Origin: a virus
Taxonomy: Duplodnaviria; Heunggongvirae; Uroviricota; Caudoviricetes
Direction: 5' to 3' (one strand)
Virus record (IMG/VR): IMGVR_UViG_3300010344_001272
Location: 11,046-75,045 of that record
Length of the DNA: 64,000 bases
This document shows positions 1 to 11,888 of the stretch, in pieces. Each line of letters begins with the position of its first letter. Within the stretch, counting starts at the first letter, position 1. A program made the translations under genes and the position numbers. The notes beneath the pieces were generated by a model that was given only the letters and a program-made list of their open reading frames with translations, ran no database searches and was not told where the DNA came from.

Positions 1-454
1 GCTAAGGGCATGAGAGTATTTGTGCTAAGTTAAGTCAGAATTTTATTAGGGCTTGTTTTCGGCAAATACTCAATAAGGCAGGAACTTAGGATGGCTGGCA
101 GAACGAACACATAAATTCTGTACCTAAGGAGTTTTGAAAAACTTAAAATTTCGGGAGATAGGAACTCCGAAAAACACGCAAATACAATTTTTCTCAGAAA
201 AAAGATTTTTATACCGTAGTAAAGTTAGGTGATACTTCGTAAATAAGAAAGCCGTGGCCCCGTGCCACAAAAATCAAATCAATTCTATGTAAACGAAGAT
301 TTCCTAAAATACTTTTGGAATTTCCTGCATGGTTCGACGAACTATATGTTCTCGGTGTTTAGGCGCCTATTTGCGTACTAACGGATTTCAAAAGTATGGA
401 GATCAATGGAGACAACCATTAAAAACGCACCTACTGGCATTCTCGGAAGATTTA

Positions 455-492
455 AAAGGGGCAAAATTAAAACTTTGTCCCTTTATTTTTTT
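455..492 (+). terminator. Rho-independent terminator closing the ORF-free first 455 nt
   Basis: stem aaGGGGCAAA / TTTGTCCCtt with one G-T wobble followed by T-run. Confidence 0.5.
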
Positions 493-506
493 ATAATAAA
501 ATAAAA

Positions 507-710
507 ATGGGTAATAAAGATTTTTTTAAAGATTTCAATATTCGCGGAGGATTTTCATCTAAATCTTTTTTAACTGATAAATTTACTGTCTGCGTACGAA
601 CAAAAGATGGAAAAGTTATCGAACATGAAAACATTACGGATCCATGGAAATACATTGCAAAGTTAAAAAAGGAAATGAATATTGATGCCGCATGGATAAA
701 AGAAGAATAA
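507..710 (+). CDS. hypothetical small protein
   Basis: 67-aa ORF, no recognisable motifs. Confidence 0.3.
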   Translation: MGNKDFFKDFNIRGGFSSKSFLTDKFTVCVRTKDGKVIEHENITDPWKYIAKLKKEMNIDAAWIKEE

Positions 711-785
711 AAGTGTTAAAAATTGTTAAAAAATTTTTTACTGTCATAGAAAAGTATTATATTTGCTATGTAAATATTAACTTAA

Positions 786-2474
786 ATGACACACACGATG
801 AAAAAATTGACATTTTTATTTATGATTGGTATCATTTTTCTCTTTTCGTGCGAGAAAATAGAAGATACCCCCACCCTGCCCCTTGAATTTACTGTTAGTA
901 TAACAAATGTTTCTATTTTTGGAGGAAGCGATGGAAAAATAGTTATAAATGTAACTTCCGGGGTACCTCCTTACTCTTATAAAATTGGAAGTTCTAATCA
1001 ATCATCCAATGAGTTTTGTAATCTTGTAAGCGGCATATATACTATTACCGTAACAGACAGTAAACAACAAGTTTTATCTAATAATGTTACTATTACAGAA
1101 CCACCTGAAACACCCAAAGTAACCGTTATAAAAAAGGATATAACTTGCAAAGGTTCTAATAATGGTATCATACATATCTATCCTGTTGAATCGTTTCAAT
1201 ATTCGATTAATGGAGGAAATTGGGGTCAATTAAATACTTTTAATAATCTTGCACCTGGTATTTATAACATTAAAGTAAAAGACGGCAGTTCTAATATAGT
1301 TTTCAATGAAAATATATCAATTATTGAACCAAATATTGTTAATGCCATTATTACTTCAACGAATATCACTTGCTTTGGCGCGAATGACGGAACAATTATA
1401 ATTTCTTCTCCAACAGGTGGGTACGGGACGTATCAATATTCTATTGATGGAGGAACTAATTGGTCATCAACAACACAATTTTATAATCTTACTCCAAATA
1501 CTTATAATGTATGGATTCGAGACGCCTCTATTCCGAATTATACATGCATTAGCGGATGTCAAGATATAGTTTTTCCTAATGAAAATCCACCAACTTATTG
1601 TCAATTAATTCTTGGCAGTATTAATATCACACAACCACAAGTTCTTAATGCTGTAGTTACATCTTCAATAATAACGAATGTAGGCGATAATAATGGTATT
1701 ATAAACATATTATCAGCAAGTGGGGGGTCAGGCGTTTATGAATATAGTATTAATGGCGGAACAACTTGGAAAACTTCAGGATATTTTAATAACCTAGTGC
1801 CAGGAAAATATGATGTGTATCTTAAAGATGCCGTTACAGGATGTGTTAAAATACTTAATTCTTGTGTAATAAAAGAACCGACTTACGTTAAAAATTTAAT
1901 TGATTTTACGTTGGCCAGTTATAATAAAGAAACTATTTCAACTGAAGTTTCAGCCTATGTAAATACAATTAACGGTACTAATAAATTTTCCATATCATTT
2001 TGGTATAACACACCCACTTCTACATTGAATAAAAACAATCCAACTTGGACATCTGCTAGATTATTGTCATCCGATCATACATCTAATCCTAGCAATGAAG
2101 CTACTACTTGGATAGAAATTAATAATACTGATTATCAAAATACCGACCCAGATGATCCTATCAAAGCCAAAATCGAATATGGTAGAATTAAAGCTAATCC
2201 ATTAACTACCGATAAGATTACTTTAAATAGTAGAACTGTATGGTCAGGATTACATCATATCGTGGTTATATTCGATGGTTTTAAAATAAAAATGTATATT
2301 GATAATGTTCTAATTAATGAAGTTTCATCTTCAATAAGTTTGAATATCAATAAAATTTATTTTGGCGGTCATGAAAGTAATACCAACTACGAGTACAATG
2401 GCATCATAAGTAAGATAAAAATTTACAACGACGCTATAACTCCAGTCGAAGTAGATTATCTGTTTAAAAATTAA
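786..2474 (+). CDS. SprB-repeat lipoprotein with C-terminal LamG/ConA-like lectin domain (adhesin or receptor-binding candidate)
   Basis: N-terminal MKKLTFLFMIGIIFLFSC lipobox; four repeats of the type (C/I)xGxxDGxI...GGxxPYxYSI(N/D)GG typical of SprB repeats; C-terminal block resembling concanavalin/LamG fold. Confidence 0.6.
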   Translation: MTHTMKKLTFLFMIGIIFLFSCEKIEDTPTLPLEFTVSITNVSIFGGSDGKIVINVTSGVPPYSYKIGSSNQSSNEFCNLVSGIYTITVTDSKQQVLSNNVTITEPPETPKVTVIKKDITCKGSNNGIIHIYPVESFQYSINGGNWGQLNTFNNLAPGIYNIKVKDGSSNIVFNENISIIEPNIVNAIITSTNITCFGANDGTIIISSPTGGYGTYQYSIDGGTNWSSTTQFYNLTPNTYNVWIRDASIPNYTCISGCQDIVFPNENPPTYCQLILGSINITQPQVLNAVVTSSIITNVGDNNGIINILSASGGSGVYEYSINGGTTWKTSGYFNNLVPGKYDVYLKDAVTGCVKILNSCVIKEPTYVKNLIDFTLASYNKETISTEVSAYVNTINGTNKFSISFWYNTPTSTLNKNNPTWTSARLLSSDHTSNPSNEATTWIEINNTDYQNTDPDDPIKAKIEYGRIKANPLTTDKITLNSRTVWSGLHHIVVIFDGFKIKMYIDNVLINEVSSSISLNINKIYFGGHESNTNYEYNGIISKIKIYNDAITPVEVDYLFKN

Positions 2475-2498
2475 TAATTTAAGTTATCAAATATCAAA

Positions 2499-2527
2499 TG
2501 GAGATCAAAAGGTCTCCATTTTTTTTG
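2499..2527 (+). terminator. Rho-independent terminator
   Basis: TGGAGATC aaaa GGTCTCCA followed by T8. Confidence 0.65.
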
Positions 2528-2787
2528 AAAAAAAGTGCTCAAAAATTTTTTTATTTCACGAATATGTATTATAATTGCAACATATTTATTGAAAAAAATT
2601 GCAATAACTTAAAACTTTTTTAAACGAGTTCATAATATATAGAAAAAATCAACAGATGCAGAAACAAGGCTTAAATATAGTCGTAGCGAATTGGGTGGCC
2701 AATGATGATAACAAAGGTCGTAGAGGAGTTATGCGTCCCGTTGAGGATATAATTGATTGGTGAAAAACAACAATTAAGAATAAATCA

Positions 2788-2822
2788 ACGGGAACTCCAA
2801 AAAGGTTCCCGTTTTTATTTTA
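2788..2822 (+). terminator. Rho-independent terminator after a 35-codon micro-ORF (2656-2763)
   Basis: CGGGAAC loop GGTTCCCG then TTTTTATTTT. Confidence 0.5.
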
Positions 2823-2848
2823 AGTTCTTTGACATATTGCTTTCTTTC

Positions 2849-2922
2849 GCGGGTGTAGCACAGTGGTAGTGCAGGAGCCTTCCAAGCTTCTGACGTGAGT
2901 TCGATTCTCATCACCCGCTCCA
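2849..2922 (+). tRNA. tRNA-Gly(TCC), CCA encoded
   Basis: hand fold: acceptor GCGGGTG/CACCCGC 7/7, D stem GCAC/GTGC, anticodon stem GGAGC/GCTTC, loop CTTCCAA, T loop TTCGATT. Confidence 0.85.
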
Positions 2923-2942
2923 ATTACTGTAGTGACTGGAAT

Positions 2943-3019
2943 GGGTTACTTCGTGCTAAATGGTTTAGCAATTGTCTCTTAAACAATGGTTGCGGTTCAA
3001 ATCCGCCTGTTACCCTCCA
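2943..3019 (+). tRNA. tRNA-like, degenerate; anticodon arm reads Lys(CTT)
   Basis: perfect anticodon arm ATTGT-CTCTTAA-ACAAT and D stem TGCT/AGCA, T loop TTCAAAT, CCA end, but acceptor GGGTTAC/GTTACCC has a T-T mismatch and spacing between arms is off by 1-3 nt. Confidence 0.3.
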
Positions 3020-3038
3020 AATTTTCTCAGTAATTAAT

Positions 3039-3126
3039 GGTCTCAGGAGCTGCTAGGTGTGGCTGCCGGCCTGTCACGCCGGAACGACTAATAATCGACA
3101 GGAGGGTTCGAACCCCTTTGGGACCG
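3039..3126 (+). tRNA. 88-nt type-II-like tRNA with 19-nt variable arm; anticodon loop CTGTCAC reads GTC (Asp)
   Basis: acceptor GGTCTCA/TGGGACC 7/7 with one wobble, D stem AGCT/GGCT, anticodon stem CCGGC/GCCGG, T arm GAGGG-TTCGAAC-CCCTT; long variable arm is unusual for GTC. Confidence 0.45.
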
Positions 3127-3156
3127 CTAACCGTAGTGATAGAACAGAGTTTCATC

Positions 3157-3229
3157 GTGAAAATAACTCAATAGATAGAGTGTATTGCTTCTAACAATAA
3201 GGTCGCTGGTTCGACTCCAGCTTTTTACT
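3157..3229 (+). tRNA. tRNA-Arg(TCT)
   Basis: acceptor GTGAAAA/TTTTTAC with one wobble, D stem ACTC/GAGT, anticodon stem TATTG/CAATA, loop CTTCTAA, T arm GCTGG-TTCGACT-CCAGC; D loop lacks GG. Confidence 0.7.
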
Positions 3230-3261
3230 AAAAAGGCTCTTTCTGGTTTTCTCGGTTAAAC

Positions 3262-3333
3262 AGGGGTATGGTGTAATGGTTAGCATGTTTCTCTCCAAAA
3301 GAAATGATCTGGGTTCGAGTCCTGGTACCCCTG
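3262..3333 (+). tRNA. tRNA-Trp(CCA)
   Basis: acceptor AGGGGTA/TACCCCT, anticodon stem TTTCT/AGAAA, loop CTCCAAA, T loop TTCGAGT. Confidence 0.8.
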
Positions 3334-3363
3334 CTAATCAAATCCAAAACTTTTAGTTCAAAT

Positions 3364-3382
3364 GGATATATAATATAAAAAT
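3364..3382 (+). promoter_or_regulatory. T4-late-like promoter motif GGATATATAATATAAAAAT
   Basis: one of at least seven similar ATATATAA(A/T)AAAA boxes 8-25 nt upstream of start codons. Confidence 0.4.
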
Positions 3383-3389
3383 ATCCTCT

Positions 3390-4052
3390 ATGAATTGCGA
3401 AAATTGCGGAAATAAACATGATGGAACTTATGGTTCTGGAAGATTTTGTTCATCTAAATGTGCTAGAGGTTTTAGTACAAAAACAAAAAGAAAGGAAATT
3501 AACCAAAAGGTAAGTAAAAAACTAAAGAAGAATTTTCTGGAAATAAAAACTTGCCCATGTGGAAAAACGTTTGAAACTTCAAATAAAAAAAGATATTGTT
3601 CTTCTTCTTGTGGAAGTCATTATTCTCAGTTAGGAAAAAATAAGAAAAAAGGGATAGAAAGAAAACAAGGATCGGGGGGATTAAGACCTGGTGGAGGTAA
3701 ATCAAAACAAATTCCATACACAAATTGGCTAGGTTTTAAAATGTTTCTTAACACAGAAGAAATAGAAGTAGCAAAAATACTTGATGAGAAAAAATTAAAT
3801 TGGGATAGAAACAGAAAAGGCTTTCCTTATTTAATGCGAAATGGAAAACAAAGAAAATATTATCCTGATTTTGTAGTAAATGGAAACAAATACATTGAAT
3901 ACAAAGGGTGGGTTACTGAAGAAATGGAATGGAAAATGAACGATGCAGTTAAAACTAATAATCTAAATTTGAATATTATAGTCGGAACAGACCCTCGATA
4001 CCAGAGATTCGGTATAACCTTAAAAGAATTAAAAAATGGAAAAAGCTTTTAA
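3390..4052 (+). CDS. putative homing-type endonuclease (N-terminal zinc ribbon, C-terminal YYPDF...IEYKGW PD-(D/E)xK-like motif); paralog of 17118-17750
   Basis: CxxC...CxxxC at N-terminus, basic middle, conserved C-terminal block shared with second copy; sits inside tRNA array. Confidence 0.4.
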   Translation: MNCENCGNKHDGTYGSGRFCSSKCARGFSTKTKRKEINQKVSKKLKKNFLEIKTCPCGKTFETSNKKRYCSSSCGSHYSQLGKNKKKGIERKQGSGGLRPGGGKSKQIPYTNWLGFKMFLNTEEIEVAKILDEKKLNWDRNRKGFPYLMRNGKQRKYYPDFVVNGNKYIEYKGWVTEEMEWKMNDAVKTNNLNLNIIVGTDPRYQRFGITLKELKNGKSF

Positions 4053-4236
4053 ATTTTTTCAAGAATTAATTAAAAGACCTGTTATTAAATCTAAAAAAAT
4101 TAATTTTGGTCCGTATTTCGAAACAAGACGGCGAATTGGGGAAAACAAAGTTACGAGAAATCAGGATCAATTAAAGGATTTTTTTGATGCGGTAATAATA
4201 GAACAAGATATTTTCGAAAAAGAGAAACGCGTATAA
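4036..4236 (+). CDS. hypothetical protein
   Basis: 66-aa ORF. Confidence 0.25.
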   Translation: MEKAFKFFQELIKRPVIKSKKINFGPYFETRRRIGENKVTRNQDQLKDFFDAVIIEQDIFEKEKRV

Positions 4237-4289
4237 TCTAACGAATAACTTGGTTAGTCTGGGGCATCGAGAACCTCTATACGCACCAC

Positions 4290-4363
4290 GGGCTGTTAGC
4301 TCAGATGGCTAGAGCGCCTGCCTTGCAAGCAGGAGGCCAAGGGTTCGACTCCCTTACGGTCCA
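4290..4363 (+). tRNA. tRNA-Ala(TGC)
   Basis: acceptor GGGCTGT/ACGGTCC with two wobbles, D arm GCTC-AGATGGCTA-GAGC, anticodon stem CCTGC/GCAGG, loop CTTGCAA. Confidence 0.85.
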
Positions 4364-4424
4364 CTACAGACAGACTGTTAAATTTTCATAGTAACCGTGA
4401 CGACGGGTTTCATAGAAAATTAAC

Positions 4425-4498
4425 GCCTTCGTGGCGCAATTGCGTAGCGCTACTCCCTCTTAAGGAGAAGGTTAAGGGTTCGAGTCCCTTCGGAGGCA
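4425..4498 (+). tRNA. tRNA-Lys(CTT)
   Basis: acceptor GCCTTCG/CGGAGGC, D arm GCGC-AATTGCGTA-GCGC, anticodon loop CTCTTAA, T arm AAGGG-TTCGAGT-CCCTT; A-A mismatch at 27-43. Confidence 0.7.
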
Positions 4499-4506
4499 CA
4501 AATGCC

Positions 4507-4613
4507 GGATGATACACTGTTTTATCACAGTGCCGGCTCCAAGGGCGATACGTGGTGGTTGGTTGCCGGCCCCACCCAGTTGGTTATCATGGGTTCGATC
4601 CCCATATCGTCCA
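4507..4613 (+). tRNA. atypical 107-nt tRNA-like gene
   Basis: perfect acceptor GGATGAT/ATCGTCC, D arm ACTG-TTTTATCA-CAGT, T arm ATGGG-TTCGATC-CCCAT, but the anticodon region is a GCCGGC...GCCGGC stem enclosing 27 nt plus a 19-nt variable region; packed in the tRNA array with 3-8 nt spacers. Confidence 0.3.
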
Positions 4614-4618
4614 CAAAT

Positions 4619-4695
4619 AGTGCGTTAGTTCAGTTGGTTAGAATATCAGACTGTCACTCTGAGGGTCGCGAGTTCGAGTCTCGTACGCACTGCCA
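4619..4695 (+). tRNA. tRNA-Asp(GTC), CCA encoded
   Basis: acceptor AGTGCGT/ACGCACT 7/7, D arm GTTC-AGTTGGTTA-GAAT, anticodon stem TCAGA/TCTGA, loop CTGTCAC. Confidence 0.85.
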
Positions 4696-4702
4696 TAGAA
4701 TC

Positions 4703-4759
4703 TGTAGTAAGAATAGAGTTTCATCGTGGTAAACATTGGTTCGAATCCAATACCGAGCG
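4703..4759 (+). other. conserved tRNA-junction motif followed by an isolated tRNA 3' fragment (T arm ATTGG-TTCGAAT-CCAAT plus acceptor strand ACCGAGC-G)
   Basis: motif TGTAGTAAGAATAGAGTTTCATCGTGG as in three other sites; no D or anticodon arm and no complementary 5' acceptor strand nearby. Confidence 0.3.
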
Positions 4760-4801
4760 CATTGCTTAGTAATTAAACTCTTTTCAACTTTCTCAGATTA
4801 C

Positions 4802-4877
4802 GGGGAGTTAGCTCAGCAGGTAGAGCGACGGACTGTTAATCCGCAGGTCATGGGTTCGATCCCCTTACTCCCCGCCA
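4802..4877 (+). tRNA. tRNA-Asn(GTT), CCA encoded
   Basis: acceptor GGGGAGT/ACTCCCC 7/7, D arm GCTC-AGCAGGTA-GAGC, anticodon loop CTGTTAA. Confidence 0.75.
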
Positions 4878-4888
4878 AATTTCAAACG

Positions 4889-5143
4889 ATGGATGAATTA
4901 TTAGAGATTATCGAAAGATTAAAAGAAGAGAATGAAGATTTGAAATCAAGATTGATTGATCTTACATTTGAAATGAATTACAATAAACAAACAGAATTGA
5001 TTGAGTTTGTTCGTTCAATTTATTCAAGTATCGAACAGGAAATGAATTTCAAAACAAGAAGTAAGTTATCCAAGAGCCAAATGCTCTATAGTTTGAAAAA
5101 GAACATTGAAGAATTTGCTAAAAACAATAAAATAGCATTATGA
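4889..5143 (+). CDS. hypothetical coiled-coil protein
   Basis: ORF-track frame 4736-5143 overlaps tRNA-Asn; first ATG after the tRNA is at 4889 (MDELLEIIERLKEENEDLK...). Confidence 0.4.
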   Translation: MDELLEIIERLKEENEDLKSRLIDLTFEMNYNKQTELIEFVRSIYSSIEQEMNFKTRSKLSKSQMLYSLKKNIEEFAKNNKIAL

Positions 5144-5571
5144 AACTTTATCGATACAGTGTTACATCTTCAAGACATGGTGCAATTCCACACGTTGAGT
5201 TACAATCGTATGATGTTAAAAAGGAAACAAATAAAGGATATTGGATTAGTTTGTATTGGGGAAGTGATAAGAAATGGGTTTCAAAAGATGGATTGCGAAG
5301 ATTTGCATTTCCAACAAAGTATCAAGCAATGCAGAATTTTATAAAGCGAACTGAGAAACGTGTAAAATATTTAGAAATAGATTTACAAGCATGCCAAGTT
5401 GGTTTGCAGTCTGCAAAAAGAATACAAGAAGATATTTCTGAAGATGATGATGTTGTAACATTATATCATATTTTAAAACTGCGGGGTAGAGCAGCGGTAG
5501 CTCGTGAGGCCCATAACCTCAAGGTCGAGGGTTCGAACCCCTTCCCCGCTACAAATGGCGAGAAAGTTTAG
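5140..5571 (+). CDS. hypothetical protein; 3' end reads through tRNA-Met
   Basis: 143-aa ORF; last 30 codons coincide with a well-folding tRNA so the true stop may be misplaced or the overlap is real. Confidence 0.35.
   Translation: MKLYRYSVTSSRHGAIPHVELQSYDVKKETNKGYWISLYWGSDKKWVSKDGLRRFAFPTKYQAMQNFIKRTEKRVKYLEIDLQACQVGLQSAKRIQEDISEDDDVVTLYHILKLRGRAAVAREAHNLKVEGSNPFPATNGEKV
5480..5551 (+). tRNA. tRNA-Met(CAT), possibly initiator (1-72 T-T mismatch)
   Basis: D arm GAGC-AGCGGTA-GCTC, anticodon stem TGAGG/CCTCA, loop CCCATAA, T arm GAGGG-TTCGAAC-CCCTT, acceptor TGCGGGG/CCCCGCT with 1-72 mismatch. Confidence 0.7.
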
Positions 5572-5682
5572 AAAAAGGCTCTTATTAGCTTTCTCATTTC
5601 GGTGTAGTAATTATGAGAGTTTCATCGGAAAAACGTCAAGCTCATAACTTGAAGATCGTTGGTTCAAATCCAGCTCTCGCCA
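5557..5682 (+). tRNA. tRNA-like Met/Ile2(CAT) gene with about 60-nt insertion in the D loop that contains the conserved junction motif
   Basis: acceptor GGCGAGA/TCTCGCC 7/7, D stem GTTT/AAAC, anticodon arm TCAAG-CTCATAA-CTTGA 5/5, T arm GTTGG-TTCAAAT-CCAGC; the canonical parts are interrupted only inside the D loop. Confidence 0.4.
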
Positions 5683-5706
5683 CACTCACTTTTTGTTCCT
5701 TGGCTA

Positions 5707-5722
5707 TGATATATAAATAAAA
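5707..5722 (+). promoter_or_regulatory. T4-late-like promoter motif GATATATAAATAAAAA
   Basis: immediately upstream of GIY-YIG gene. Confidence 0.4.
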
Positions 5723-5729
5723 ATGTATC

Positions 5730-6284
5730 ATGCCAAGGAAACCAAAAGTGTATCATGTTCTTTACAAAACAACTTGTTTAGTGACAAATCGATATTATAT
5801 TGGAATGCACTCAACAAATGATTTAAATGATGGATATTTAGGAAGTGGAACAAGATTAAGATATTCTATTAAGAAATACGGAATTGAAAATCATAAGTTT
5901 GAAATTTTAGAAAACCTTCCCGATAGAAGTTCTTTGAAATTAAGAGAAAAGGAAGTTGTTAATGAAGAATTAATTAAGGATGTTAATTGTATGAATTTAA
6001 AATGCGGGGGTGAAGGAGGAGGAAAATTTTGGAATAAAGAACACCAGAAAAAATGTTCTATTGCAGGAGCCCTTGCTGTGTTACCTATTAGAAGACAATA
6101 TCATCTTGATAAATTAAAAACAGATCCAGAATATAGAAAAAAATACAAACAATCACTAAGTAAAGCACTATCAGGTGAAAAAAATCCTTTTTATGGAAAA
6201 CATCATACAGAAGAAACAAAACAAAAAATGAGAAAACCTCATAAAACATATAAAAAACGAAAAGCAAAAATCATGACCTCGTAA
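5730..6284 (+). CDS. GIY-YIG homing endonuclease
   Basis: N-terminal KVYHVLYKTTCLVTNRYYIGMHST...GYLGSG GIY-YIG module; paralog at 18204. Confidence 0.75.
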   Translation: MPRKPKVYHVLYKTTCLVTNRYYIGMHSTNDLNDGYLGSGTRLRYSIKKYGIENHKFEILENLPDRSSLKLREKEVVNEELIKDVNCMNLKCGGEGGGKFWNKEHQKKCSIAGALAVLPIRRQYHLDKLKTDPEYRKKYKQSLSKALSGEKNPFYGKHHTEETKQKMRKPHKTYKKRKAKIMTS

Positions 6285-6347
6285 CTCAGTTGGTAGAGTA
6301 CCACACTTTTAATGTGGGAGTCGTGAGTTCGAGTCTCACCGGGGTCA
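6275..6347 (+). tRNA. tRNA-Lys(TTT)
   Basis: acceptor GACCTCG/CGGGGTC, D arm ACTC-AGTTGGTA-GAGT, anticodon stem CCACA/TGTGG, loop CTTTTAA, T arm GTGAG-TTCGAGT-CTCAC. Confidence 0.85.
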
Positions 6348-6363
6348 CAATGATTAGAGTATT

Positions 6364-6593
<230 letters not shown>

Positions 6594-6671
6594 CACTGGA
6601 TGCCGATTGCCGGGGGAGGTATGTTCCCTGATTTGACGGCTATTATCAAAGTGCGGGCATGAAATCCTTTC

Positions 6672-6749
6672 GGAAGATTAGCTCAGTTGGTTCAGAGCAC
6701 TTGCCTTACAAGCAAGGGGTCGTGGGTTCGAATCCCTCATCTTCCACCA
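6672..6749 (+). tRNA. tRNA-Val(TAC), CCA encoded
   Basis: acceptor GGAAGAT/ATCTTCC, D arm GCTC..GAGC, anticodon stem CTTGC/GCAAG, loop CTTACAA. Confidence 0.85.
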
Positions 6750-6760
6750 AATAATTTGAT

Positions 6761-7267
6761 ATGGATTTTAAAGAATTTCCAATCAGACAACAAATGAACA
6801 GACATGATTGTTCAGTATGTGTCATTTGGTGTATACTTAGATATGCTGGAATAGATATTACTTACAGAGATTTATATCGCTTCATTCATCCTCCAATAGG
6901 CCCTAATGATGGGGTTTCTGGAGAACAAGTAATGAAAATACTTAGAAGTTTTGGAATTAATGTTGTTTCAGAAACTAGTAATATTTCAAAATTAAGAATT
7001 GATACAAATAATTGGCCCGTAATAGTCAGTATACAACACAAGAAAAAAAGAAATGTTGATTGGAAAAACATAATCGAATTTGGACATTATGTAATTGTTT
7101 TAAAAGTTGATGATAAAAAAGTAAAATTCATGGATCCAAATTATGGAAAGATAAGGTCTTTAAATATTAAAGATTTTAAAGACAGATGGCATGATGGAGA
7201 TGAAAATGAACTTTGTAAATATCCAGCAATCATATGTATGGTAAATGAATCGAAATCTATACTTTAA
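6761..7267 (+). CDS. putative papain-like cysteine peptidase (C39-like)
   Basis: N-terminal HDCSVCVIWCILRYAGI and later GHYVIVLKV...DPNYG match Cys/His arrangement of C39 peptidase domains. Confidence 0.45.
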   Translation: MDFKEFPIRQQMNRHDCSVCVIWCILRYAGIDITYRDLYRFIHPPIGPNDGVSGEQVMKILRSFGINVVSETSNISKLRIDTNNWPVIVSIQHKKKRNVDWKNIIEFGHYVIVLKVDDKKVKFMDPNYGKIRSLNIKDFKDRWHDGDENELCKYPAIICMVNESKSIL

Positions 7268-7559
7268 GGATGGTGTTCTTTTTGCTAAGGGCTACGAAAG
7301 AGTGGTTCACGGAGGGCGAGGAGATTATATAGAGTTAACTAAAGATCAAATAGTTGTAGAACTTAGATCAAAATTTAAACAATCACTTCCGGAAGCCGTT
7401 TCTGACGAGCCCTTTTATTACTACTGGTTGGTTCCAATTGGAAGAGAAGAAAAAATTTACTGGCAGTGCAGAACTGTAAATTATGCAGATTACAAAATAG
7501 GATATTATTATATAAGTCCTAAGTTAATTATACCATTTGATAGTACAGAATTATTTTAA
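7245..7559 (+). CDS. hypothetical protein
   Basis: 104-aa ORF. Confidence 0.3.
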   Translation: MNRNLYFKDGVLFAKGYERVVHGGRGDYIELTKDQIVVELRSKFKQSLPEAVSDEPFYYYWLVPIGREEKIYWQCRTVNYADYKIGYYYISPKLIIPFDSTELF

Positions 7560-7571
7560 TAAATAAGATAT

Positions 7572-7931
7572 ATGGAAGACAAAGATTTAGATATTAGAAT
7601 CACTCGGGGATCAGGCCCAGGGGGACAACATAAAAACAAGGTGGAAACTTGTGTTATTATAACTCATATTCCAACTGGTTTACAAGAGAAGTGTCAAGAA
7701 ACTCGTAGTAAAATTCAGAATCTTGAACTTGCTAAAGAAAGAATTAAAGCGAAAGTAGAGAAACTACAAGAGCAAAAAATTCAAGAGGCAAAAAATGAAC
7801 GCAGACGTGAATTAATTAAAAACCAGAAAGTAGTTCGTACATATAACTTTGTAAGAAATGAAGTTTATGATCATCGGACAAAAACAAAACACGATCTGAA
7901 AAAGTTTATGAGAGGAGAAATTGATCTATGA
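7572..7931 (+). CDS. arfB: ArfB-like peptidyl-tRNA hydrolase / class I release factor GGQ domain protein
   Basis: ITRGSGPGGQHKNKVETCV GGQ motif block followed by basic C-terminal tail. Confidence 0.75.
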   Translation: MEDKDLDIRITRGSGPGGQHKNKVETCVIITHIPTGLQEKCQETRSKIQNLELAKERIKAKVEKLQEQKIQEAKNERRRELIKNQKVVRTYNFVRNEVYDHRTKTKHDLKKFMRGEIDL

Positions 7932-8119
7932 AACTTACACTCGAAAAAGATATAAAAGTAGCTGTTGAAGTAAATGGTGAAAAATTCATTGGATCCGAAG
8001 AGGGAATTTTATACCAAAGTATTACAGATACAGAAATTTTACTTTATATTAAAACAGAACCTGAAGGAAAAGAAATAAAAATTAAAATAGCAAAAGATGT
8101 TAATAATCAAGGTGCATGA
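7928..8119 (+). CDS. hypothetical small protein
   Basis: 63-aa ORF, overlaps start of bS21 gene in another frame. Confidence 0.25.
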   Translation: MKLTLEKDIKVAVEVNGEKFIGSEEGILYQSITDTEILLYIKTEPEGKEIKIKIAKDVNNQGA

Positions 8120-8297
8120 GGGTGAAAATATTGACAAAGCCCTTAAGAGATTCAAAAGAAAATTCAACATGATTGGAGTTGCTAGTGAATTACGTGAAAG
8201 AGAACAATTCACAAAGCCTTCTGTAAAAAAGAGGCAAATAAAACAGAAAGCTAAATACAGACAATACATGCAGAGAAAAGAAGAAATGGGCGAATAA
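8097..8297 (+). CDS. rpsU: ribosomal protein bS21
   Basis: MLIIKVHEGENIDKALKRFKRKFNMIGVASELREREQFTKPSVKKRQIK matches the S21 family pattern over its full length. Confidence 0.8.
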   Translation: MLIIKVHEGENIDKALKRFKRKFNMIGVASELREREQFTKPSVKKRQIKQKAKYRQYMQRKEEMGE

Positions 8298-8301
8298 CAA
8301 T

Positions 8302-8377
8302 GGTTCGGTAGCTCAATGGATAGAGCAACAGCCTTCTAAGCTGTCGGTTGAGCGTTCGAGTCGCTCCCGAATCACCA
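8302..8377 (+). tRNA. tRNA-Arg(TCT), CCA encoded (second copy of this anticodon)
   Basis: acceptor GGTTCGG/CCGAATC, D arm GCTC-AATGGATA-GAGC, anticodon stem ACAGC/GCTGT, loop CTTCTAA. Confidence 0.85.
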
Positions 8378-8393
8378 ATTTAAATTTTCATTT

Positions 8394-8876
8394 ATGACAG
8401 CACTTTATATTATAATGTTAACCATATTTGTTGGTTATATTTCATGGATATGGGCCAGATATGGTGTATTACCATCTATTTCCCATAGTTATTATTCACT
8501 TCCCGACAATCTTAAATTTATATTTACTTTATGGTCTTGGGGATATGCAATTCCAGCTATCATTGTAGCTTCAACACCATTAATGTTTTTTGCCGGGGCG
8601 GGAATTTGTTTTGTAGGTGCGGCAGCAGCGTATCGAGAAAAAATGACCGAGACTGTTCATATAATTGGAGCAGCATGCGCAATTATTTTTAGTCAATTAT
8701 CTATAATAATCGATTTTGATATGTGGTATGTTACGGTTGCTTTTGCTGCAATTGCTTTACCACTTGCCTTAACAAGATTTTCAAAGAAAGGAATATGTCC
8801 AAATAGAACTTGGTGGGTTGAAATTTTAGCATTTATAACAATAGCTTTAGTATTAGGAATAAAATTATGGTCGTAA
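8394..8876 (+). CDS. polytopic membrane protein
   Basis: about 5 hydrophobic helices. Confidence 0.4.
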   Translation: MTALYIIMLTIFVGYISWIWARYGVLPSISHSYYSLPDNLKFIFTLWSWGYAIPAIIVASTPLMFFAGAGICFVGAAAAYREKMTETVHIIGAACAIIFSQLSIIIDFDMWYVTVAFAAIALPLALTRFSKKGICPNRTWWVEILAFITIALVLGIKLWS

Positions 8877-9142
8877 AGTTGGTATCATATGATGGTTCAT
8901 ATCCAAACTTATGTAGTGGTAAGTTAATTCTTTCTGTTGATGAAAAGGAATGGGTTTTTCCATCATATTGTTTATCAAGTGGCGGCAGCGTATGGTTTGA
9001 CAATGACTGGAGTGAACATGTTGAAGATGGTCCTTGGGGTATAGGTGAATGGCCTGAAGGTTTTCCTGAAGAAGCTAAGGAAGAAGCTTTAAGTGTTATT
9101 AACGAAGAAATTTCCTGGGGTTGTTGCGGAGGATGTGTATGA
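8867..9142 (+). CDS. hypothetical protein
   Basis: 91-aa ORF with C-terminal CCGGC. Confidence 0.3.
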   Translation: MVVKLVSYDGSYPNLCSGKLILSVDEKEWVFPSYCLSSGGSVWFDNDWSEHVEDGPWGIGEWPEGFPEEAKEEALSVINEEISWGCCGGCV

Positions 9143-9384
9143 CAGCGCAAGAATACATAGATGCTTGGGATATAAGATGGGAAAATCATTTTAGATACTC
9201 TGTTTTAGTTGAAGAATTAAGTAATTTACAAGGAATTGATGTAGTTGCCCAGATGGAATCTGTTTTAATAGCCGAAATGACTAAGGAGGTTGACAAACAT
9301 ATACAAAACGATATACAGAGATTATTTAATATGAGTATACAACAATCAGAAAAAATTAACACAATAGTCGATGGAATCCTATAA
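9121..9384 (+). CDS. hypothetical protein
   Basis: 87-aa ORF. Confidence 0.3.
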   Translation: MLRRMCMTAQEYIDAWDIRWENHFRYSVLVEELSNLQGIDVVAQMESVLIAEMTKEVDKHIQNDIQRLFNMSIQQSEKINTIVDGIL

Positions 9385-10003
9385 TTCCATACCAAAATGG
9401 AGTGAAGATTATTTTGGCAAATATGTATTCGCATTTGACAAAATAGACGGTTCCAATTTCAGAGCTGAATGGAATCGAAAATTATCTAAAAAATCCCGCT
9501 TTACATATGGTTTTGGAAAATTTGGAACCAGACAAGACAGAATAAAATTTATTAAAGATCCATATTGTGAAGGTATTGAAATATTTAAAAACAAATTTTC
9601 GGAAAAATTAGATAAGATATTCTTAGAAAACAAAACGTTTAGAAACATTGATAATATCACAGTATTTGGAGAATTTTATGGATCTAAAAGCTTTGCTGGA
9701 ATGCATGATTGGAGTGAAAAACATGATGTCAAAATTTTTGATGTATTTTTAGATAGAAAAGGAATTTTGCCCCCATCTGATTTTATAAAAATATTTGAAG
9801 GATTAGATACATGCAAACTTATATTTGCGGGAATTTTTTCTCAAAGTTATTTAGAGTTAATTGAAAAAAATATATTAAATTTACAAGAAGGAGTTGTTTG
9901 TAAAGGGGTTGAAAACCAAGAGGTATTCATGTTCAAAATAAAAACACTGAAATGGCTTCAGAAGGTAAGAGATTTATATGGTAATGAAAGAACTGATTAT
10001 TAG
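9371..10003 (+). CDS. ATP-dependent RNA ligase, Rnl2-like nucleotidyltransferase domain only
   Basis: motif I KIDGSNFRAEW, motif III FGEFYG, motif IV EGVVCKG, motif V FKIK. Confidence 0.6.
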   Translation: MESYNSIPKWSEDYFGKYVFAFDKIDGSNFRAEWNRKLSKKSRFTYGFGKFGTRQDRIKFIKDPYCEGIEIFKNKFSEKLDKIFLENKTFRNIDNITVFGEFYGSKSFAGMHDWSEKHDVKIFDVFLDRKGILPPSDFIKIFEGLDTCKLIFAGIFSQSYLELIEKNILNLQEGVVCKGVENQEVFMFKIKTLKWLQKVRDLYGNERTDY

Positions 10004-10262
10004 ATCGGCAATTACAGTTGACGAACTTGTTCTTCAATGGGAAGCAAAACAAGAGTTACGATTTATTTTTGATGGATTTCCTCAATTAAATATACTTCGT
10101 CCAACTGCATCATTGATCGCAAATGATTTAGTTTCAGTACAACCCATGGCAGCTCCTACAGGAGTATTCCATTATATAGAATATGTTTATAATGGAACCC
10201 CAGATAGACCGTTTAATGAAATGCAACATGATTGCGGAATTGAAAAAACTTTAAGTGAATGA
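9978..10262 (+). CDS. 94-aa ORF homologous to the N-terminal conserved core of gp23-family major capsid proteins (fragment or mini-paralog)
   Basis: LVSVQPMAAPTGVFHYIEYVYNG aligns with VNVVPMPGPTGVISYLDYVYAGG of the full capsid gene at 39095 and with T4 gp23 ICGVQPMNSPTGQVFALRAVYG. Confidence 0.4.
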   Translation: MVMKELIIRSAITVDELVLQWEAKQELRFIFDGFPQLNILRPTASLIANDLVSVQPMAAPTGVFHYIEYVYNGTPDRPFNEMQHDCGIEKTLSE

Positions 10263-10444
10263 AGAACTATAAATCTAAAAGAAAAGATTTAAGAGATCGA
10301 AAAAGAGAGATAATGGAAGTTGGATTTGACTCTTCAAAAGATAGAAAAAGAGTTGTTGAATCCTTTAAAAGAGAATCTCGTTCATTGAAAAGAAGTGAAA
10401 AGAATTCTTTCAAGAATTCTTGGAGAAGTGAATACGGTATTTAA
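10259..10444 (+). CDS. hypothetical basic protein
   Basis: 61-aa K/R-rich ORF. Confidence 0.2.
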   Translation: MKNYKSKRKDLRDRKREIMEVGFDSSKDRKRVVESFKRESRSLKRSEKNSFKNSWRSEYGI

Positions 10445-10521
10445 GGCCTTATAGCTCAATTGGATAGAGCACCTGACTACGGATCAGGAGGTTATGGGTT
10501 CGACTCCCTTTAAGGTCACCA
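10445..10521 (+). tRNA. tRNA-Arg(ACG), CCA encoded
   Basis: acceptor GGCCTTA/TAAGGTC, D arm GCTC-AATTGGATA-GAGC, anticodon stem CCTGA/TCAGG, loop CTACGGA. Confidence 0.85.
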
Positions 10522-10523
10522 TC

Positions 10524-10597
10524 GCCTTCATAGCTCAATTGGATAGAGCATCTGACTTCGGATCAGATGGTTGAGGGTTCGAATCCTTCTGAGGGCG
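10524..10597 (+). tRNA. tRNA-Arg(TCG)
   Basis: acceptor GCCTTCA/TGAGGGC, same D arm, anticodon stem TCTGA/TCAGA, loop CTTCGGA. Confidence 0.85.
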
Positions 10598-10613
10598 CTT
10601 AATATATAATAAG

Positions 10614-10814
10614 ATGAGTGATAAACTTGAAAATTTGTTGGCTATTTTGTTCTGTGTCATATTTGCAATTAGTGTAGGAATATATTACTTTGTTAGTATG
10701 ACTATTGGGGGGATGGATGGCCGGTTTGACGATTTGTTTGGGGATTTCATACATGTTAGCTCAATCATTTCGTTATGCTTGGATAAGTATCAAGCAGCTA
10801 TCAGACCAAATTGA
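10614..10814 (+). CDS. small membrane protein
   Basis: 66 aa, one or two TM helices. Confidence 0.25.
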   Translation: MSDKLENLLAILFCVIFAISVGIYYFVSMTIGGMDGRFDDLFGDFIHVSSIISLCLDKYQAAIRPN

Positions 10815-10848
10815 TAGTTTAAAAAAATAAAGAGTATGGACGACGAGG

Positions 10849-11082
10849 GTGGTAGTCAAAAAAGAAAAATTATCAACTGTGTTTCTAATGTTAGGAACTT
10901 TCTTCAATCCATTAGGATACGATGCGCTATTGAAGGCTTTACTGGATTGGACAGGCAATTATTGGCTTTCAATTTCCATTTTTTACCTTGTCTCAGCTTG
11001 TTTCTTTACGCTATATTTTGTATTTTCTAAAACAAATCCATTGAATTTGTTTCGAAAAAATAAAAAAAATGCCCATTCATAA
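10849..11082 (+). CDS. small membrane protein
   Basis: 77 aa, hydrophobic. Confidence 0.25.
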   Translation: MVVKKEKLSTVFLMLGTFFNPLGYDALLKALLDWTGNYWLSISIFYLVSACFFTLYFVFSKTNPLNLFRKNKKNAHS

Positions 11083-11383
11083 AATATTCGTAAAAATTTT
11101 TTTAAAATTATTTTCTGGATTCAAATTTTGTTTTATATTCACGTCATATTTCTTACACAATATGACCCTTTTAAAGCCCACCTTTTACGGAGACACAATG
11201 GAACTTCTGGTTCCAGTTAAATCCAATGATTATTTTTTAGAACAGGTTGACGTCGATATGTTTACTGGAAAAAGACGGTACTATAATATTATTGACGGGC
11301 ACGCGAAGGTCTATGGTTATTTACCCGGAGAAGGCGAACGTATTCCTAATCCAAAAACAACAATTTGGTTCTTTCCAAACTAG
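11069..11383 (+). CDS. hypothetical protein
   Basis: 104-aa ORF. Confidence 0.3.
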   Translation: MPIHKIFVKIFLKLFSGFKFCFIFTSYFLHNMTLLKPTFYGDTMELLVPVKSNDYFLEQVDVDMFTGKRRYYNIIDGHAKVYGYLPGEGERIPNPKTTIWFFPN

Positions 11384-11404
11384 TAACATTTAAATTTATA
11401 CAAT

Positions 11405-11887
11405 ATGAAAAAAGTTTTGCTCTTCCTCGTAATGTTTGTTTCACTCAGTATGATAACAAACGCACAAACTCCTATGGCATTACGTGTCCAGGGAGGGTAT
11501 TCTTGGATTAATGGTGTCGTTGGTGGTGAACTTCAAATTGGAAAATTTGGAGTAAGCGGTGGATGGATGCCATGTAAAATGCCATTGAGTGGTGATAAAA
11601 TAAGCTCAATTGGTGGTGCTCTTACTTACTACACACTTCCTGCAGACGAAGAAGGATATTCTTATTATGCATCAGTGGGTGTTGCTTCTCAAGGCTACCG
11701 ATATGAATTAACAAGTTCATGGGGATATGGCGAAGAAGCAACTTTACCTATGACAATCATAATGGTTGGTTACAAATATGACAGTGGCGGAGTTAACTTT
11801 AAACTCGGCGGAGGTTATGGATGGTGTGAAGAAGCTGGCGCCTGGACATTTGAAGCAACATTGGGATTTACACTTTTCGGAAATTAA
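11405..11887 (+). CDS. secreted Gly/Tyr-rich protein, possible small beta-barrel
   Basis: signal peptide MKKVLLFLVMFVSLSMITNAQT, alternating G/Y/W-rich strands. Confidence 0.4.
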   Translation: MKKVLLFLVMFVSLSMITNAQTPMALRVQGGYSWINGVVGGELQIGKFGVSGGWMPCKMPLSGDKISSIGGALTYYTLPADEEGYSYYASVGVASQGYRYELTSSWGYGEEATLPMTIIMVGYKYDSGGVNFKLGGGYGWCEEAGAWTFEATLGFTLFGN

Positions 11888-11888
11888 C

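What the first reader, a model, noticed from the sequence alone, without database searches (positions are those of the whole stretch)
5557..5682. tRNA(CAT) gene with about 60-nt insertion confined to the D loop
All canonical elements fold without mismatch: acceptor GGCGAGA/TCTCGCC, D stem GTTT/AAAC, anticodon arm TCAAG-CTCATAA-CTTGA, T arm GTTGG-TTCAAAT-CCAGC. About 60 nt, including a hairpin and the conserved junction motif, are inserted between the D-stem strands. Chance occurrence of a perfect 7-mer acceptor partner plus matching D stem at the right spacing is low. This could be an intron-like or mobile insertion, or a precursor processed into a functional tRNA or tRNA half.
Basis: seen in the sequence. 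Interest (0 to 1): 0.65.

Follow-up and report, generated by a model that had tools for sequence, protein, structure and literature searches.

The report
Phage tRNA interrupted by conserved hairpin
A phage tRNA(CAU) gene really is interrupted in its D loop by a ~50-base hairpin, and that hairpin is a closed-up copy of a conserved, apparently undescribed RNA stalk that brackets tRNAs in many phage tRNA arrays, which suggests an unknown way of processing phage tRNAs.

Summary
Acceptor, D, anticodon (CAU) and T helices are all present. GGCGAGA and its complement each occur once in the 64 kb window. ARAGORN calls a tRNA-Met only after the insert is deleted in silico.

The insert is not anonymous. 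Bases 5576-5622 form a hairpin that is a loop-closed, circularly permuted copy of a conserved stalk: helix H3, a GUAGURA/UUUCUC core, then helices H2 and H1. In this window and in many phage contigs the open form of the stalk pairs the 5' leader with the 3' trailer around tRNAs or tRNA-like RNAs.

A covariance model trained only on open stalks hits 5573-5627 at E=4e-7; the next best hit has E=0.2. At least 20 viral contigs carry tRNA genes with the closed stalk at the same site. These include four further lineages of the same tRNA(CAU). Compensatory changes occur in every helix, including the D stem that spans the insert.

No Rfam family, GenBank phage record or paper matched. What the stalk does was not tested. 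My preferred reading is an intron-like processing stalk that is cut out. A permanently retained fifth arm is nearly as likely.

The parts
5557..5563 (+). Acceptor stem, 5' strand (GGCGAGA). It starts 4 nt after the preceding tRNA-Met, following the usual CAAAT spacer.
   Evidence: The helix is 7/7 Watson-Crick and 100% paired across 8 relatives, with double changes at 3 positions. Five different acceptor sequences occur in the wider family, all 7/7.
5564..5565 (+). Positions 8-9 (AA). This is unusual because U8 is almost universal in tRNAs.
   Evidence: AA is conserved in 10 of 13 family members.
5566..5569 (+). D stem, 5' strand (GUUU).
   Evidence: It pairs with 5631-5634. The L285 orthologue has ATTC/GAAT, a compensatory change.
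5570..5575 (+). 5' part of the D loop: A14, G15, then a 4-nt AAAA linker.
   Evidence: G15 with C48 (5657) changes to A15 with U48 in L269 and L232 (my own reading of the sequences).
5576..5622 (+). Inserted stalk hairpin. Helix H1 is 5576-5582/5616-5622. Helix H2 is 5583-5587/5611-5615. The core is UUUCUC 5590-5595 opposite GUAGUAA 5604-5610. Helix H3 is 5596-5597/5602-5603, closed by a UUCG loop at 5598-5601.
   Evidence: Model R1, built without this sequence, hits 5573-5627 at 36.2 bits, E=3.8e-7. The MFE fold of the insert alone gives the same architecture. H1 covaries: CUCU/AGAG becomes CUAA/UUAG in L269 and UUCU/AGAA in L285. RNAalifold predicts H1, the core and H3 independently.
5623..5630 (+). 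3' part of the D loop (CAUCGGAA), holding G18, G19 and A21. CAUCG is the invariant tail of the stalk's 5' module.
   Evidence: CAUCGG or CUUCGG is present in 11 of 13 stalk-bearing tRNAs.
5631..5634 (+). D stem, 3' strand (AAAC).
5636..5652 (+). Anticodon arm UCAAG-CUCAUAA-CUUGA. The anticodon CAU is at 5643-5645.
   Evidence: The helix covaries.
5653..5657 (+). Variable loop AGAUC.
5658..5674 (+). T arm GUUGG-UUCAAAU-CCAGC.
   Evidence: L003 has AUAGG/CCUAU, L256 has GUAGG/CCUGC and L269 has GGAGG/CCUUC. The helix is 100% paired with 3 doubly changed pairs.
5675..5682 (+). Acceptor stem, 3' strand (UCUCGCC), plus discriminator A5682. CCA is not encoded in the window. It is encoded after the discriminator in L003, L256 and L285.
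3128..3258 (+). Open (standard) stalk unit. H3 is UAACC/GGUUA. The order is GUAGUGA, GAGUUUCAUC, tRNA-Arg(UCU) at 3157-3229, AAAAAGGCUCUU, UUUUCUC. The leader pairs with the trailer around a complete tRNA.
   Evidence: (the MFE fold shows the stalk enclosing a cloverleaf).
4700..4798 (+). Open stalk unit around a T-arm minihelix plus a variable hairpin. There is no anticodon arm.
2927..3030 (+). Open stalk unit in which helix H1 is the acceptor stem of an uncalled tRNA-Lys(CUU)-like RNA: GGGUUAC/GUUACCC, then U-CCA, then UUUUCUC.
   Evidence: (partial Rfam tRNA hit 2955-3006, 34.8 bits).
9371..10003 (+). RNA ligase gene (context only). It is a candidate joining enzyme if the stalk is excised.
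   Evidence: Pfam PF09414 at E=4.5e-11. PHROG 548 'RNA ligase'. Homologues lie near the arrays in L256 and L007.

Best explanation
This is a genuine, evolutionarily maintained tRNA(CAU) gene. Its transcript folds into a normal cloverleaf, except that the D loop carries an insertion between nt 15 and 18, in the naturally variable 16/17 pocket. The insertion is a 47-nt irregular hairpin (5576-5622) with 4-nt linkers on each side.

Shown: the hairpin is a loop-closed, circularly permuted copy of a conserved RNA stalk. The stalk consists of a covarying helix H3, a core of GUAGURA opposite UUUCUC, helix H2, and helix H1 (AGAGUUU opposite AAGCUCU), followed by CAUCG. In its open form the stalk pairs the 5' leader with the 3' trailer around tRNAs, tRNA-like bodies or minihelices, both in this phage's arrays and in many other phages.

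Inferred: the stalk is an RNA-level recognition and cleavage element used to process the polycistronic tRNA transcript. In this gene it therefore behaves as an intron-like element. A roughly 22-bp helix at the tRNA elbow should not fit on the ribosome, so it must be cut out. An endonuclease specific for the stalk would do this, either a host RNase III-type enzyme or an unidentified phage enzyme. The two pieces would then be rejoined, perhaps by the RNA ligase encoded 3.7 kb downstream, or held together by the acceptor, D and H1 helices. The product would be a 71-72-nt tRNA-Met.
For: Structure and homology (shown):
- The 7-mer partner is unique in the window.
- ARAGORN calls tRNA-Met after in-silico deletion of the insert.
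- Open stalks: the H3 flanks of true partners form 5.3 contiguous pairs on average, against 1.3 for mismatched partners. On alignment A3, 88.7% of cells are paired against 43-53% when the partner is slid, and the covariation score is 0.365 against 0.163 shuffled, 0/500.
- Model R1, trained on open stalks only, finds 5573-5627 as the single significant hit in 64 kb: 36.2 bits, E=3.8e-7, with the next hit at 14.3 bits.
- The same closed stalk sits at the same site in tRNA genes of at least 20 IMG/VR contigs. Five different acceptor sequences occur, all 7/7 Watson-Crick.
- On 8 relatives, 91.6% of cells are paired against 42-50% slid, 22 pairs changed on both sides, and the score is 0.368 against 0.188, 0/500. 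RNAalifold agrees.
- G-U pairs are frequent and the motif always lies on the tRNA strand, so the structure is at the RNA level.

For excision (indirect only):
- The open form must be removed from tRNA-Arg 3157-3229 for that tRNA to mature.
- An uninterrupted tRNA-Met with the same acceptor exists in L287.
- An RNA ligase gene is syntenic with the arrays.
Against: - There are no expression or cleavage data.
- No stalk-specific endonuclease gene was identified. About 30 neighbouring ORFs were scanned and gave only homing endonucleases, an RNA ligase, S21 and an RF-1 domain protein.
- Bacteria are not known to splice tRNAs with protein enzymes.
- RNase III products would leave a stub rather than a clean junction.
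- The splice points cannot be deduced, because many deletion end points give a valid tRNA.
- A8 instead of U8 is conserved, so the tRNA core may be non-standard.
- Many family members have 8-9-nt 'anticodon' loops (CUUGAAAC and similar), which hints at a non-decoding role.
- RNA ligase genes in phages are also explained by repair of nuclease-cut tRNA.
Confidence: 0.42

Rival explanations
1. Retained fifth arm. The stalk is never removed. The mature RNA is a five-armed tRNA or tRNA-like RNA, and the stalk acts as a handle for a phage or host protein, for example in modification, protection from anticodon nucleases, or selective use or sequestration.
For: The insert sits exactly in the solvent-exposed 16/17 pocket, with A14, G15-C48, G18, G19 and A21 preserved on either side, so the L-shape can form with the arm projecting outward. 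Conserved unpaired core nucleotides (GUAGURA/UUUCUC) look like a binding site. In the open form the stalk is attached to bodies that have no free acceptor end and so cannot be ordinary tRNAs. This means the stalk also functions on RNAs that are not decoders. Several closed-stalk members have non-canonical 8-9-nt anticodon loops.
Against: A roughly 22-bp helix at the elbow should clash with neighbouring tRNAs and with the L1 stalk and central protuberance on the ribosome (established structural knowledge, not tested here). The target and several relatives keep perfectly canonical 7-nt anticodon loops (CAU, GUC, GCA, GAA), intact acceptor stems and sometimes an encoded CCA. That pattern argues for decoding.
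Confidence: 0.3
2. Small ribozyme. The stalk itself catalyses cleavage, and possibly ligation. The closed form would then be self-excising, and the open form (3' half, payload, 5' half) would be a natural permuted intron-exon that could circularise its payload.
For: The strongly conserved unpaired nucleotides flanked by covarying helices, and the occurrence of the stalk in two circular permutations, are typical of small self-cleaving ribozymes.
Against: No Rfam ribozyme family matched, even at E<=10. No cleavage site can be inferred. A 47-nt hairpin with one internal loop is very small for a cleavage-plus-ligation activity.
Confidence: 0.1
3. Recombination scar or pseudogene. Recombination driven by homing endonucleases between repeated stalks placed a trailer-leader junction inside a tRNA gene, and the gene is now dead or neutral.
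For: The arrays are full of homing-endonuclease genes (3390-4052, 5730-6284, 17118-17750, 18204-18848), and these are variably present between relatives. The insert has the order trailer module then leader module, as at the junction between two tandem units. A direct repeat, GAGA(AA)GTTT, flanks it. This is a plausible origin.
Against: As a statement about the present state of the gene, it is contradicted by compensatory substitutions in the acceptor, D, anticodon, T and stalk helices across lineages that are only about 60-90% identical. It is also contradicted by retention of the gene in at least 20 contigs.
Confidence: 0.06
4. Truncated tRNA with a local 4-bp acceptor. As in Rfam's alignment (5615-5679, GAGA/UCUC), the upstream GGCGAGA would be unrelated spacer.
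For: Rfam scores 40.9 bits, above the gathering threshold of 29. A local GUUU (5619-5622) can also pair with AAAC.
Against: The upstream 7-mer covaries with the 3' strand in five sequence variants. In L256 the local GUUU is GAUA, while the upstream GUUU is kept. In L285 the upstream strand and the 3' strand changed together.
Confidence: 0.04

Closest known systems
Archaeal and algal disrupted tRNA genes: non-canonical introns, split tRNAs and circularly permuted tRNAs processed at a bulge-helix-bulge (BHB) motif
   Same: One RNA motif is used in two topologies. It closes an intron inside a tRNA, including at D-loop positions, and it pairs leader with trailer around tRNA sequence. The two forms are related by circular permutation (PMC3978253). 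This is the closest analogy in how the system would work.
   Different: Here the motif is a roughly 22-bp irregular stalk with a GUAGURA/UUUCUC core, not two 3-nt bulges separated by a 4-bp helix. The host is a bacteriophage, and neither EndA/Sen endonuclease nor RtcB-type splicing is known in such systems. No processing has been demonstrated.
Group I introns in bacterial and phage tRNA genes
   Same: They interrupt tRNA genes of bacteria and phages, including tRNA(CAU) genes, and homing endonucleases are nearby.
   Different: Group I introns are longer than about 200 nt, have a P1-P9 core, and sit in the anticodon loop. This insert is about 55 nt, forms a single hairpin and lies in the D loop. 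Rfam gave no Intron_gpI hit.
RNase III processing stalks (rRNA operon leader-spacer stems; phage T7 R1.1-type sites)
   Same: They are long irregular leader-trailer helices with internal loops that bracket a stable RNA within a polycistronic transcript. A hairpin version also occurs between genes. Compare the payload-less unit in L026.
   Different: The core sequence here is conserved across distant phages, the stalk is placed inside a tRNA, and cleavage by RNase III has not been tested.
Class II tRNAs (long variable arm) and bacterial YrlA tRNA-like Y RNAs
   Same: Both show that an extra helix can project from an otherwise canonical tRNA fold. YrlA joins a tRNA-like module to a protein-binding stem and has no free CCA end, as do the open-stalk tRNA-like units.
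   Different: The extra arm here is in the D loop, not the variable region. Rfam's YrlA model gives only sub-threshold hits elsewhere (27-31 bits against a gathering score of 69). In YrlA the ends sit where the anticodon stem would be, whereas these RNAs keep an anticodon arm.

Membership tests
tRNA (Rfam RF00005 / canonical cloverleaf) | A 7-bp acceptor stem, a D arm, an anticodon arm with a 7-nt loop, and a T arm with a UUCRANY loop, at canonical spacing | tested here: inconclusive
   All helices are present and covary. The spacing is canonical only after the insert is removed: ARAGORN then calls tRNA-Met. On the native sequence ARAGORN is negative, and Rfam matches only 5615-5679 with a 4-bp acceptor.
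tRNA (Rfam RF00005 / canonical cloverleaf) | Conserved tertiary nucleotides: U8, A14, R15-Y48, G18, G19, A21, T54-A58 | tested here: inconclusive
   A14, G15-C48, G18, G19, A21 and the UUCAAAU T loop are present. Position 8 is A rather than U, and this is conserved in relatives.
BHB-type tRNA intron / permuted tRNA | Two 3-nt bulges separated by a 4-bp helix at the exon-intron or leader-trailer junction | tested here: not met
   The definition is taken from PMC3978253. The junctions here are 4-nt single-stranded linkers followed by a 7-bp helix H1. No 3-4-3 bulge-helix-bulge can be drawn at either junction.
BHB-type tRNA intron / permuted tRNA | Presence of a splicing endonuclease (EndA/Sen) and removal of the insert followed by ligation | not testable with these tools
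   No such gene was found among about 30 neighbouring ORFs scanned. The rest of the genome is unknown, and there are no RNA data.
Group I intron | A P1-P9 catalytic core, more than about 200 nt long, matching Rfam Intron_gpI | tested here: not met
   The insert is 55-61 nt and forms one hairpin. No Intron_gpI match appeared at E<=10.
Known small self-cleaving ribozymes (hammerhead, twister, twister-sister, pistol, hatchet, hairpin, HDV-like) | A match to the family covariance model | tested here: not met
   No such family appeared among hits at E<=10 in 5300-5900, at E<=0.1 in 1-20000, or at E<=1 in L025, L026 and L029.
RNase III processing stalk | About two turns of mostly double-stranded RNA flanking a stable RNA | tested here: met
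   H3, core, H2 and H1 together make about 20-25 bp with internal loops, in both the open and closed forms.
RNase III processing stalk | Staggered cleavage by RNase III | not testable with these tools
   This needs an enzyme assay or mapping of RNA ends.
The stalk motif defined here (open and loop-closed forms) | The motif order is: H1 3' strand (A)AGCUCU, UUUCUC, helix H3, GUAGURA, purine-rich H2 strand, AGAGUUU-CAUCG. H3 and H1 must be base-paired. | tested here: met
   R1 scores 36.2 bits, E=3.8e-7, at 5573-5627, with all model positions matched. The substitutions between the window and L003 keep every pair.

The most novel reading that the evidence does not exclude
Bacteriophages with large tRNA arrays possess a tRNA splicing and permutation system that does not depend on a BHB motif or a group I intron. 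One conserved ~45-nt stalk would act as an intron when loop-closed inside a tRNA, as here. When open it would act as a natural permuted intron-exon, so that the same cut-and-join reaction releases or circularises the enclosed tRNA or tRNA-like RNA. The reaction would be carried out by an unidentified endonuclease plus the syntenic RNA ligase, or by the RNA itself.
Probability: 0.25. Interest if true: 0.95.

Novelty: new variant of a known kind. Interest (0 to 1): 0.8.

Why it matters
In bacteria and their viruses, the only tRNA-gene interruptions known to me are self-splicing group I introns and, rarely, group II introns. This finding is different in four ways.

- A short, sequence-conserved, covarying hairpin is inserted at one fixed D-loop site in many different phage tRNAs.
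- The same element also brackets tRNAs in a circularly permuted arrangement. That arrangement parallels the archaeal and algal logic in which intron, split and permuted tRNA genes are interconvertible, but it uses a different motif in a different domain of life.
- If the stalk is excised, phages have a tRNA maturation pathway that has not been described.
- If the stalk is retained, these are five-armed tRNAs of a kind that has not been described.

There is also a practical consequence. tRNA finders miss these genes: ARAGORN missed this one, and Rfam called only a truncated 3' part. Phage tRNA repertoires, and codon-usage or recoding inferences built on them, are therefore incomplete. The element is compact and easy to test experimentally.

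Tried and rejected
- **GenBank phages (blastn).** Only the neighbouring ordinary tRNAs and the GIY-YIG gene matched. Nothing matched the target.
- **Rfam.** No family covers the stalk. The YrlA and archaeal RNase P hits were far below threshold.
- **Literature.** Four full-text searches found no description of phage tRNA D-loop insertions or of this motif. The huge-phage paper does not mention tRNA introns.
- **Metagenome scan for the closed arrangement.** The 69 hits were mostly chance matches in coding sequence. Only L056, L060 and L093 were real, and L060 and L093 are tandem open units.
- **GTDB genome scan for the 5' module.** The matches I checked (L123, L144, L190, L194) are chance matches: they lack a credible 3' module or H3 pairing. 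No host was identified.
- **Local D stem (5619-5622) as the true one.** Rejected for this lineage, because L256 and L285 keep or co-vary the upstream strand. It may still apply in the L030/L037 subgroup.
- **Alternative helix.** The tRNA 5' end (GAGAAAG) can pair with the UUUCUC tract (CUUUCUC). Own-sequence complementarity was 8.3 against 7.1 for cross-sequence pairs, so this is mostly a purine/pyrimidine composition effect.
- **Triple helix.** The mirror-repeat pyrimidine tracts suggested one, but the strand polarity is wrong and there is no covariation to test it. I dropped the idea (reasoning only).
- **BoxA resemblance.** The GCUCUUU resemblance to the rRNA boxA antitermination element rests on memory only and was not pursued.
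- **Promoter or terminator inside the insert.** None was found on the + strand.
- **Search for an endonuclease.** Pfam and PHROGs scans of about 30 ORFs were uninformative apart from the RNA ligase and homing endonucleases.

Full report
**Context.** The window is a phage genome segment. Four IMG/VR contigs are 99% identical over the region, and one (L003) is about 90% identical. It carries two tRNA arrays with 22 ARAGORN calls, interspersed with homing-endonuclease genes. Nearby genes are translation-related: ribosomal protein S21, an RF-1-domain protein, peptide deformylase and an RNA ligase. GenBank phages share only ordinary tRNAs with it.

**The observation.** The ruler gives the following layout.
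- Acceptor GGCGAGA 5557-5563 / TCTCGCC 5675-5681, discriminator A5682.
- AA at 5564-5565.
- D stem GTTT 5566-5569 / AAAC 5631-5634.
- Anticodon arm 5636-5652, with CAT at 5643-5645.
- Variable loop 5653-5657.
- T arm 5658-5674.

GGCGAGA occurs once per strand in the whole window, and the two copies are these two. ARAGORN does not call the gene. Rfam's tRNA model matches only 5615-5679, using a local GAGA/UCUC pseudo-acceptor (40.9 bits). Deleting the insert in silico yields a tRNA-Met(CAT) call starting at 5557, for many deletion end points.

**What the insert is.** Its two halves recur elsewhere in the array, but in the opposite order.
- The 5' module, GTAGTRA-N6-8-GAGTTTCATCG, occurs at 3133 and 4704. 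A variant, GTAGTGA-N7-GGGTTACTTCG, occurs at 2929.
- The 3' module, (A)AGCTCTT..TTTCTC, occurs downstream of each.

In those 'open' units the order is 5' module, payload, 3' module. The payload varies:
- a complete tRNA (tRNA-Arg 3157-3229);
- a tRNA-like body with no free acceptor end;
- a T-arm minihelix;
- almost nothing, in one unit of L026.

Folding shows a long irregular leader-trailer helix enclosing the payload.

**Evidence that the open stalk is a real RNA structure.** Pattern scans recovered the unit in many unrelated phage contigs.
- The bases just outside GTAGTRA and TTTCTC, which were not part of any search pattern, are complementary within a unit. They form a mean of 5.3 contiguous pairs, against 1.3 for mismatched partners, with 13 different innermost 4-mers.
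- On a fixed-register alignment, 88.7% of cells are paired against 43-53% when the partner is slid. The covariation score is 0.365 against 0.163 after shuffling, 0/500.
- G-U pairs are frequent and the motif always lies on the tRNA strand, so the structure is at the RNA level.

One caveat applies. Sequence conservation of the core is partly by construction, because I collected members with sequence patterns.

**The target's insert is the same stalk, closed by a loop.**
- Folded alone, 5570-5627 adopts the architecture of artificially permuted open stalks.
- I built covariance model R1 only from 24 permuted open stalks. The target and its orthologous copies were left out, although two of the 24 came from the window's own open units. 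R1 finds 5573-5627 as the only significant hit in the window: 36.2 bits, E=3.8e-7, with the next hit at 14.3 bits.

The hairpin spans 5576-5622:
- H1 5576-5582 / 5616-5622;
- H2 5583-5587 / 5611-5615;
- core UUUCUC 5590-5595 opposite GUAGUAA 5604-5610;
- H3 5596-5597 / 5602-5603, closed by UUCG.

**It is not a one-off.** R1 and two further pattern scans found the closed stalk at the same site in tRNA genes of at least 20 viral contigs.
- Orthologous tRNA(CAU) genes with the same acceptor occur in L256/L299, L285 and L269. L235 has the same gene with anticodon AAC.
- Other members have acceptors GGGGAGA, GGGGAAG, GGGGGAA or GAGGGAG. Each is 7/7 complementary to the 7 nt that follow the T stem, and several are followed by an encoded CCA.
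- On 8 relatives, 91.6% of cells are paired against 42-50% slid. Twenty-two pairs changed on both sides, and the score is 0.368 against 0.188, 0/500.
- RNAalifold independently predicts the acceptor, H1, core plus H3, anticodon and T helices.
- The D stem across the insert changes from GTTT/AAAC to ATTC/GAAT in L285. H1 changes from CUCU/AGAG to CUAA/UUAG in L269 and to UUCU/AGAA in L285. G15-C48 becomes A15-U48 in L269 and L232.

The gene is therefore under selection to fold as a tRNA with a hairpin in the 16/17 pocket of the D loop. L287 carries an uninterrupted tRNA-Met with the same acceptor.

**Mechanism (inferred, not shown).** A roughly 22-bp helix at the elbow should be incompatible with ribosomal tRNA sites. 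The open form must also be removed for the enclosed tRNA-Arg to mature. I therefore favour the reading that the stalk is a processing element and that here it behaves as an intron, cut by an RNase III-type or phage endonuclease. The pieces would then be rejoined, or held together by the remaining helices. An RNA ligase gene (9371-10003) is syntenic with the arrays, also in the more distant relatives L256 and L007. My confidence is about 0.4.

A permanently retained, protein-binding fifth arm is nearly as likely, at about 0.3. Three facts support it: the open stalks sit on bodies that cannot be decoders, many family members have 8-9-nt anticodon loops, and A8 is conserved. A self-cleaving or self-ligating ribozyme (about 0.1) cannot be excluded. 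A dead recombination scar is contradicted by the covariation, although recombination between tandem units is the likely origin of the arrangement.

**Comparison with known systems.** The closest analogy is the archaeal and algal BHB system, in which one motif serves introns, split tRNAs and permuted tRNAs (PMC3978253). The BHB motif itself is absent here. The insert is not a group I intron and does not match any Rfam ribozyme or other family. Four literature searches found no description.

**Verdict.** The structural interpretation is supported and extended. The function is unresolved. I rate this a new variant of the disrupted-tRNA-gene theme, with a realistic chance that a new processing pathway lies behind it.

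Noticed in passing
window 2927-3030: An uncalled tRNA-Lys(CUU)-like gene with acceptor GGGTTAC/GTTACCC (one U-U mismatch), then T-CCA. It has five extra nucleotides between the acceptor and D stems and is embedded directly in an open stalk. Rfam matches only model positions 10-63, at 34.8 bits.
   Followed up: partly
window 4543-4614 and 4503-4543: Two further uncalled structured RNAs lie between tRNA-Lys and tRNA-Asp. One is tRNA-like, with acceptor GGGCGAT/ATCGTCC and a good T arm but an aberrant centre. The other is a stable hairpin, GCCGG...CCGGC, followed by TCCA (z = -3.45).
   Followed up: partly
window 16806-16894: A class II tRNA-like gene with acceptor GGAGGUG/CGCCUCC, a long variable arm and anticodon loop CCCGAAA (CGA, with C at position 33). 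ARAGORN misses it. Rfam's best match is tRNA-Sec, below threshold (37 against 47 bits). The fold z-score is -3.4.
   Followed up: partly
window 5480-5552: The neighbouring tRNA-Met has anticodon loop CCCAUAA, with C33 in place of the near-universal U33, and a U1-U72 mismatch. The L003 orthologue has the normal CUCAUAA.
   Followed up: no
window 3039-3127 compared with L001 and L008: tRNA-Asp(GTC) is 89 nt long because of an 11-nt hairpin-forming insertion (TAATAATCGAC) in the variable region. L001 lacks the insertion and L008 has a variant of it. tRNA-Trp is 12 nt longer in L003. Short indels inside tRNAs are common in this phage group.
   Followed up: no
window 3157-3229 compared with L008: The stalk-enclosed tRNA has anticodon TCT (Arg) in the window and GTT (Asn) in L008, in an otherwise nearly identical tRNA. 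This looks like an anticodon shift. Similarly, L235's orthologue of the target has AAC where the target has CAT.
   Followed up: no
L025 12722-12832; L268 (about 137-nt tRNA): These are other phage tRNA genes with short insertions of about 40-60 nt in the anticodon loop or arm. The inserts are too short for group I introns. The L025 insert shares GCTTTCT..TCGGTGTA with the target's stalk.
   Followed up: partly
window 5730-6284 (also 3390-4052, 17118-17750, 18204-18848): Homing-endonuclease genes (GIY-YIG/NUMOD3 and HNH-like) sit between the tRNAs. The gene at 5730-6284 is absent from L003, where the target is followed directly by tRNA-Lys(UUU). L001, L002 and L004 have an extra insertion of about 1 kb upstream of tRNA-Met.
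   Followed up: partly
L030, L037, L232, L233, L240 (stalk-bearing tRNA-like genes): Many members have 8-9-nt 'anticodon' loops containing UUGAAA, for example CUUGAAAC. These could be quadruplet or frameshift decoders, or non-decoding RNAs.
   Followed up: no
window 5560-5566 compared with 5589-5595: The tRNA 5' end (GAGAAAG) is perfectly complementary to the stalk's CUUUCUC tract. In the L030 group the equivalent pairing reaches 10 bp (GAAGAAAUUC/GAAUUUCUUC). This could be an alternative fold that sequesters the acceptor strand, but it is only weakly above the composition background (8.3 against 7.1).
   Followed up: partly
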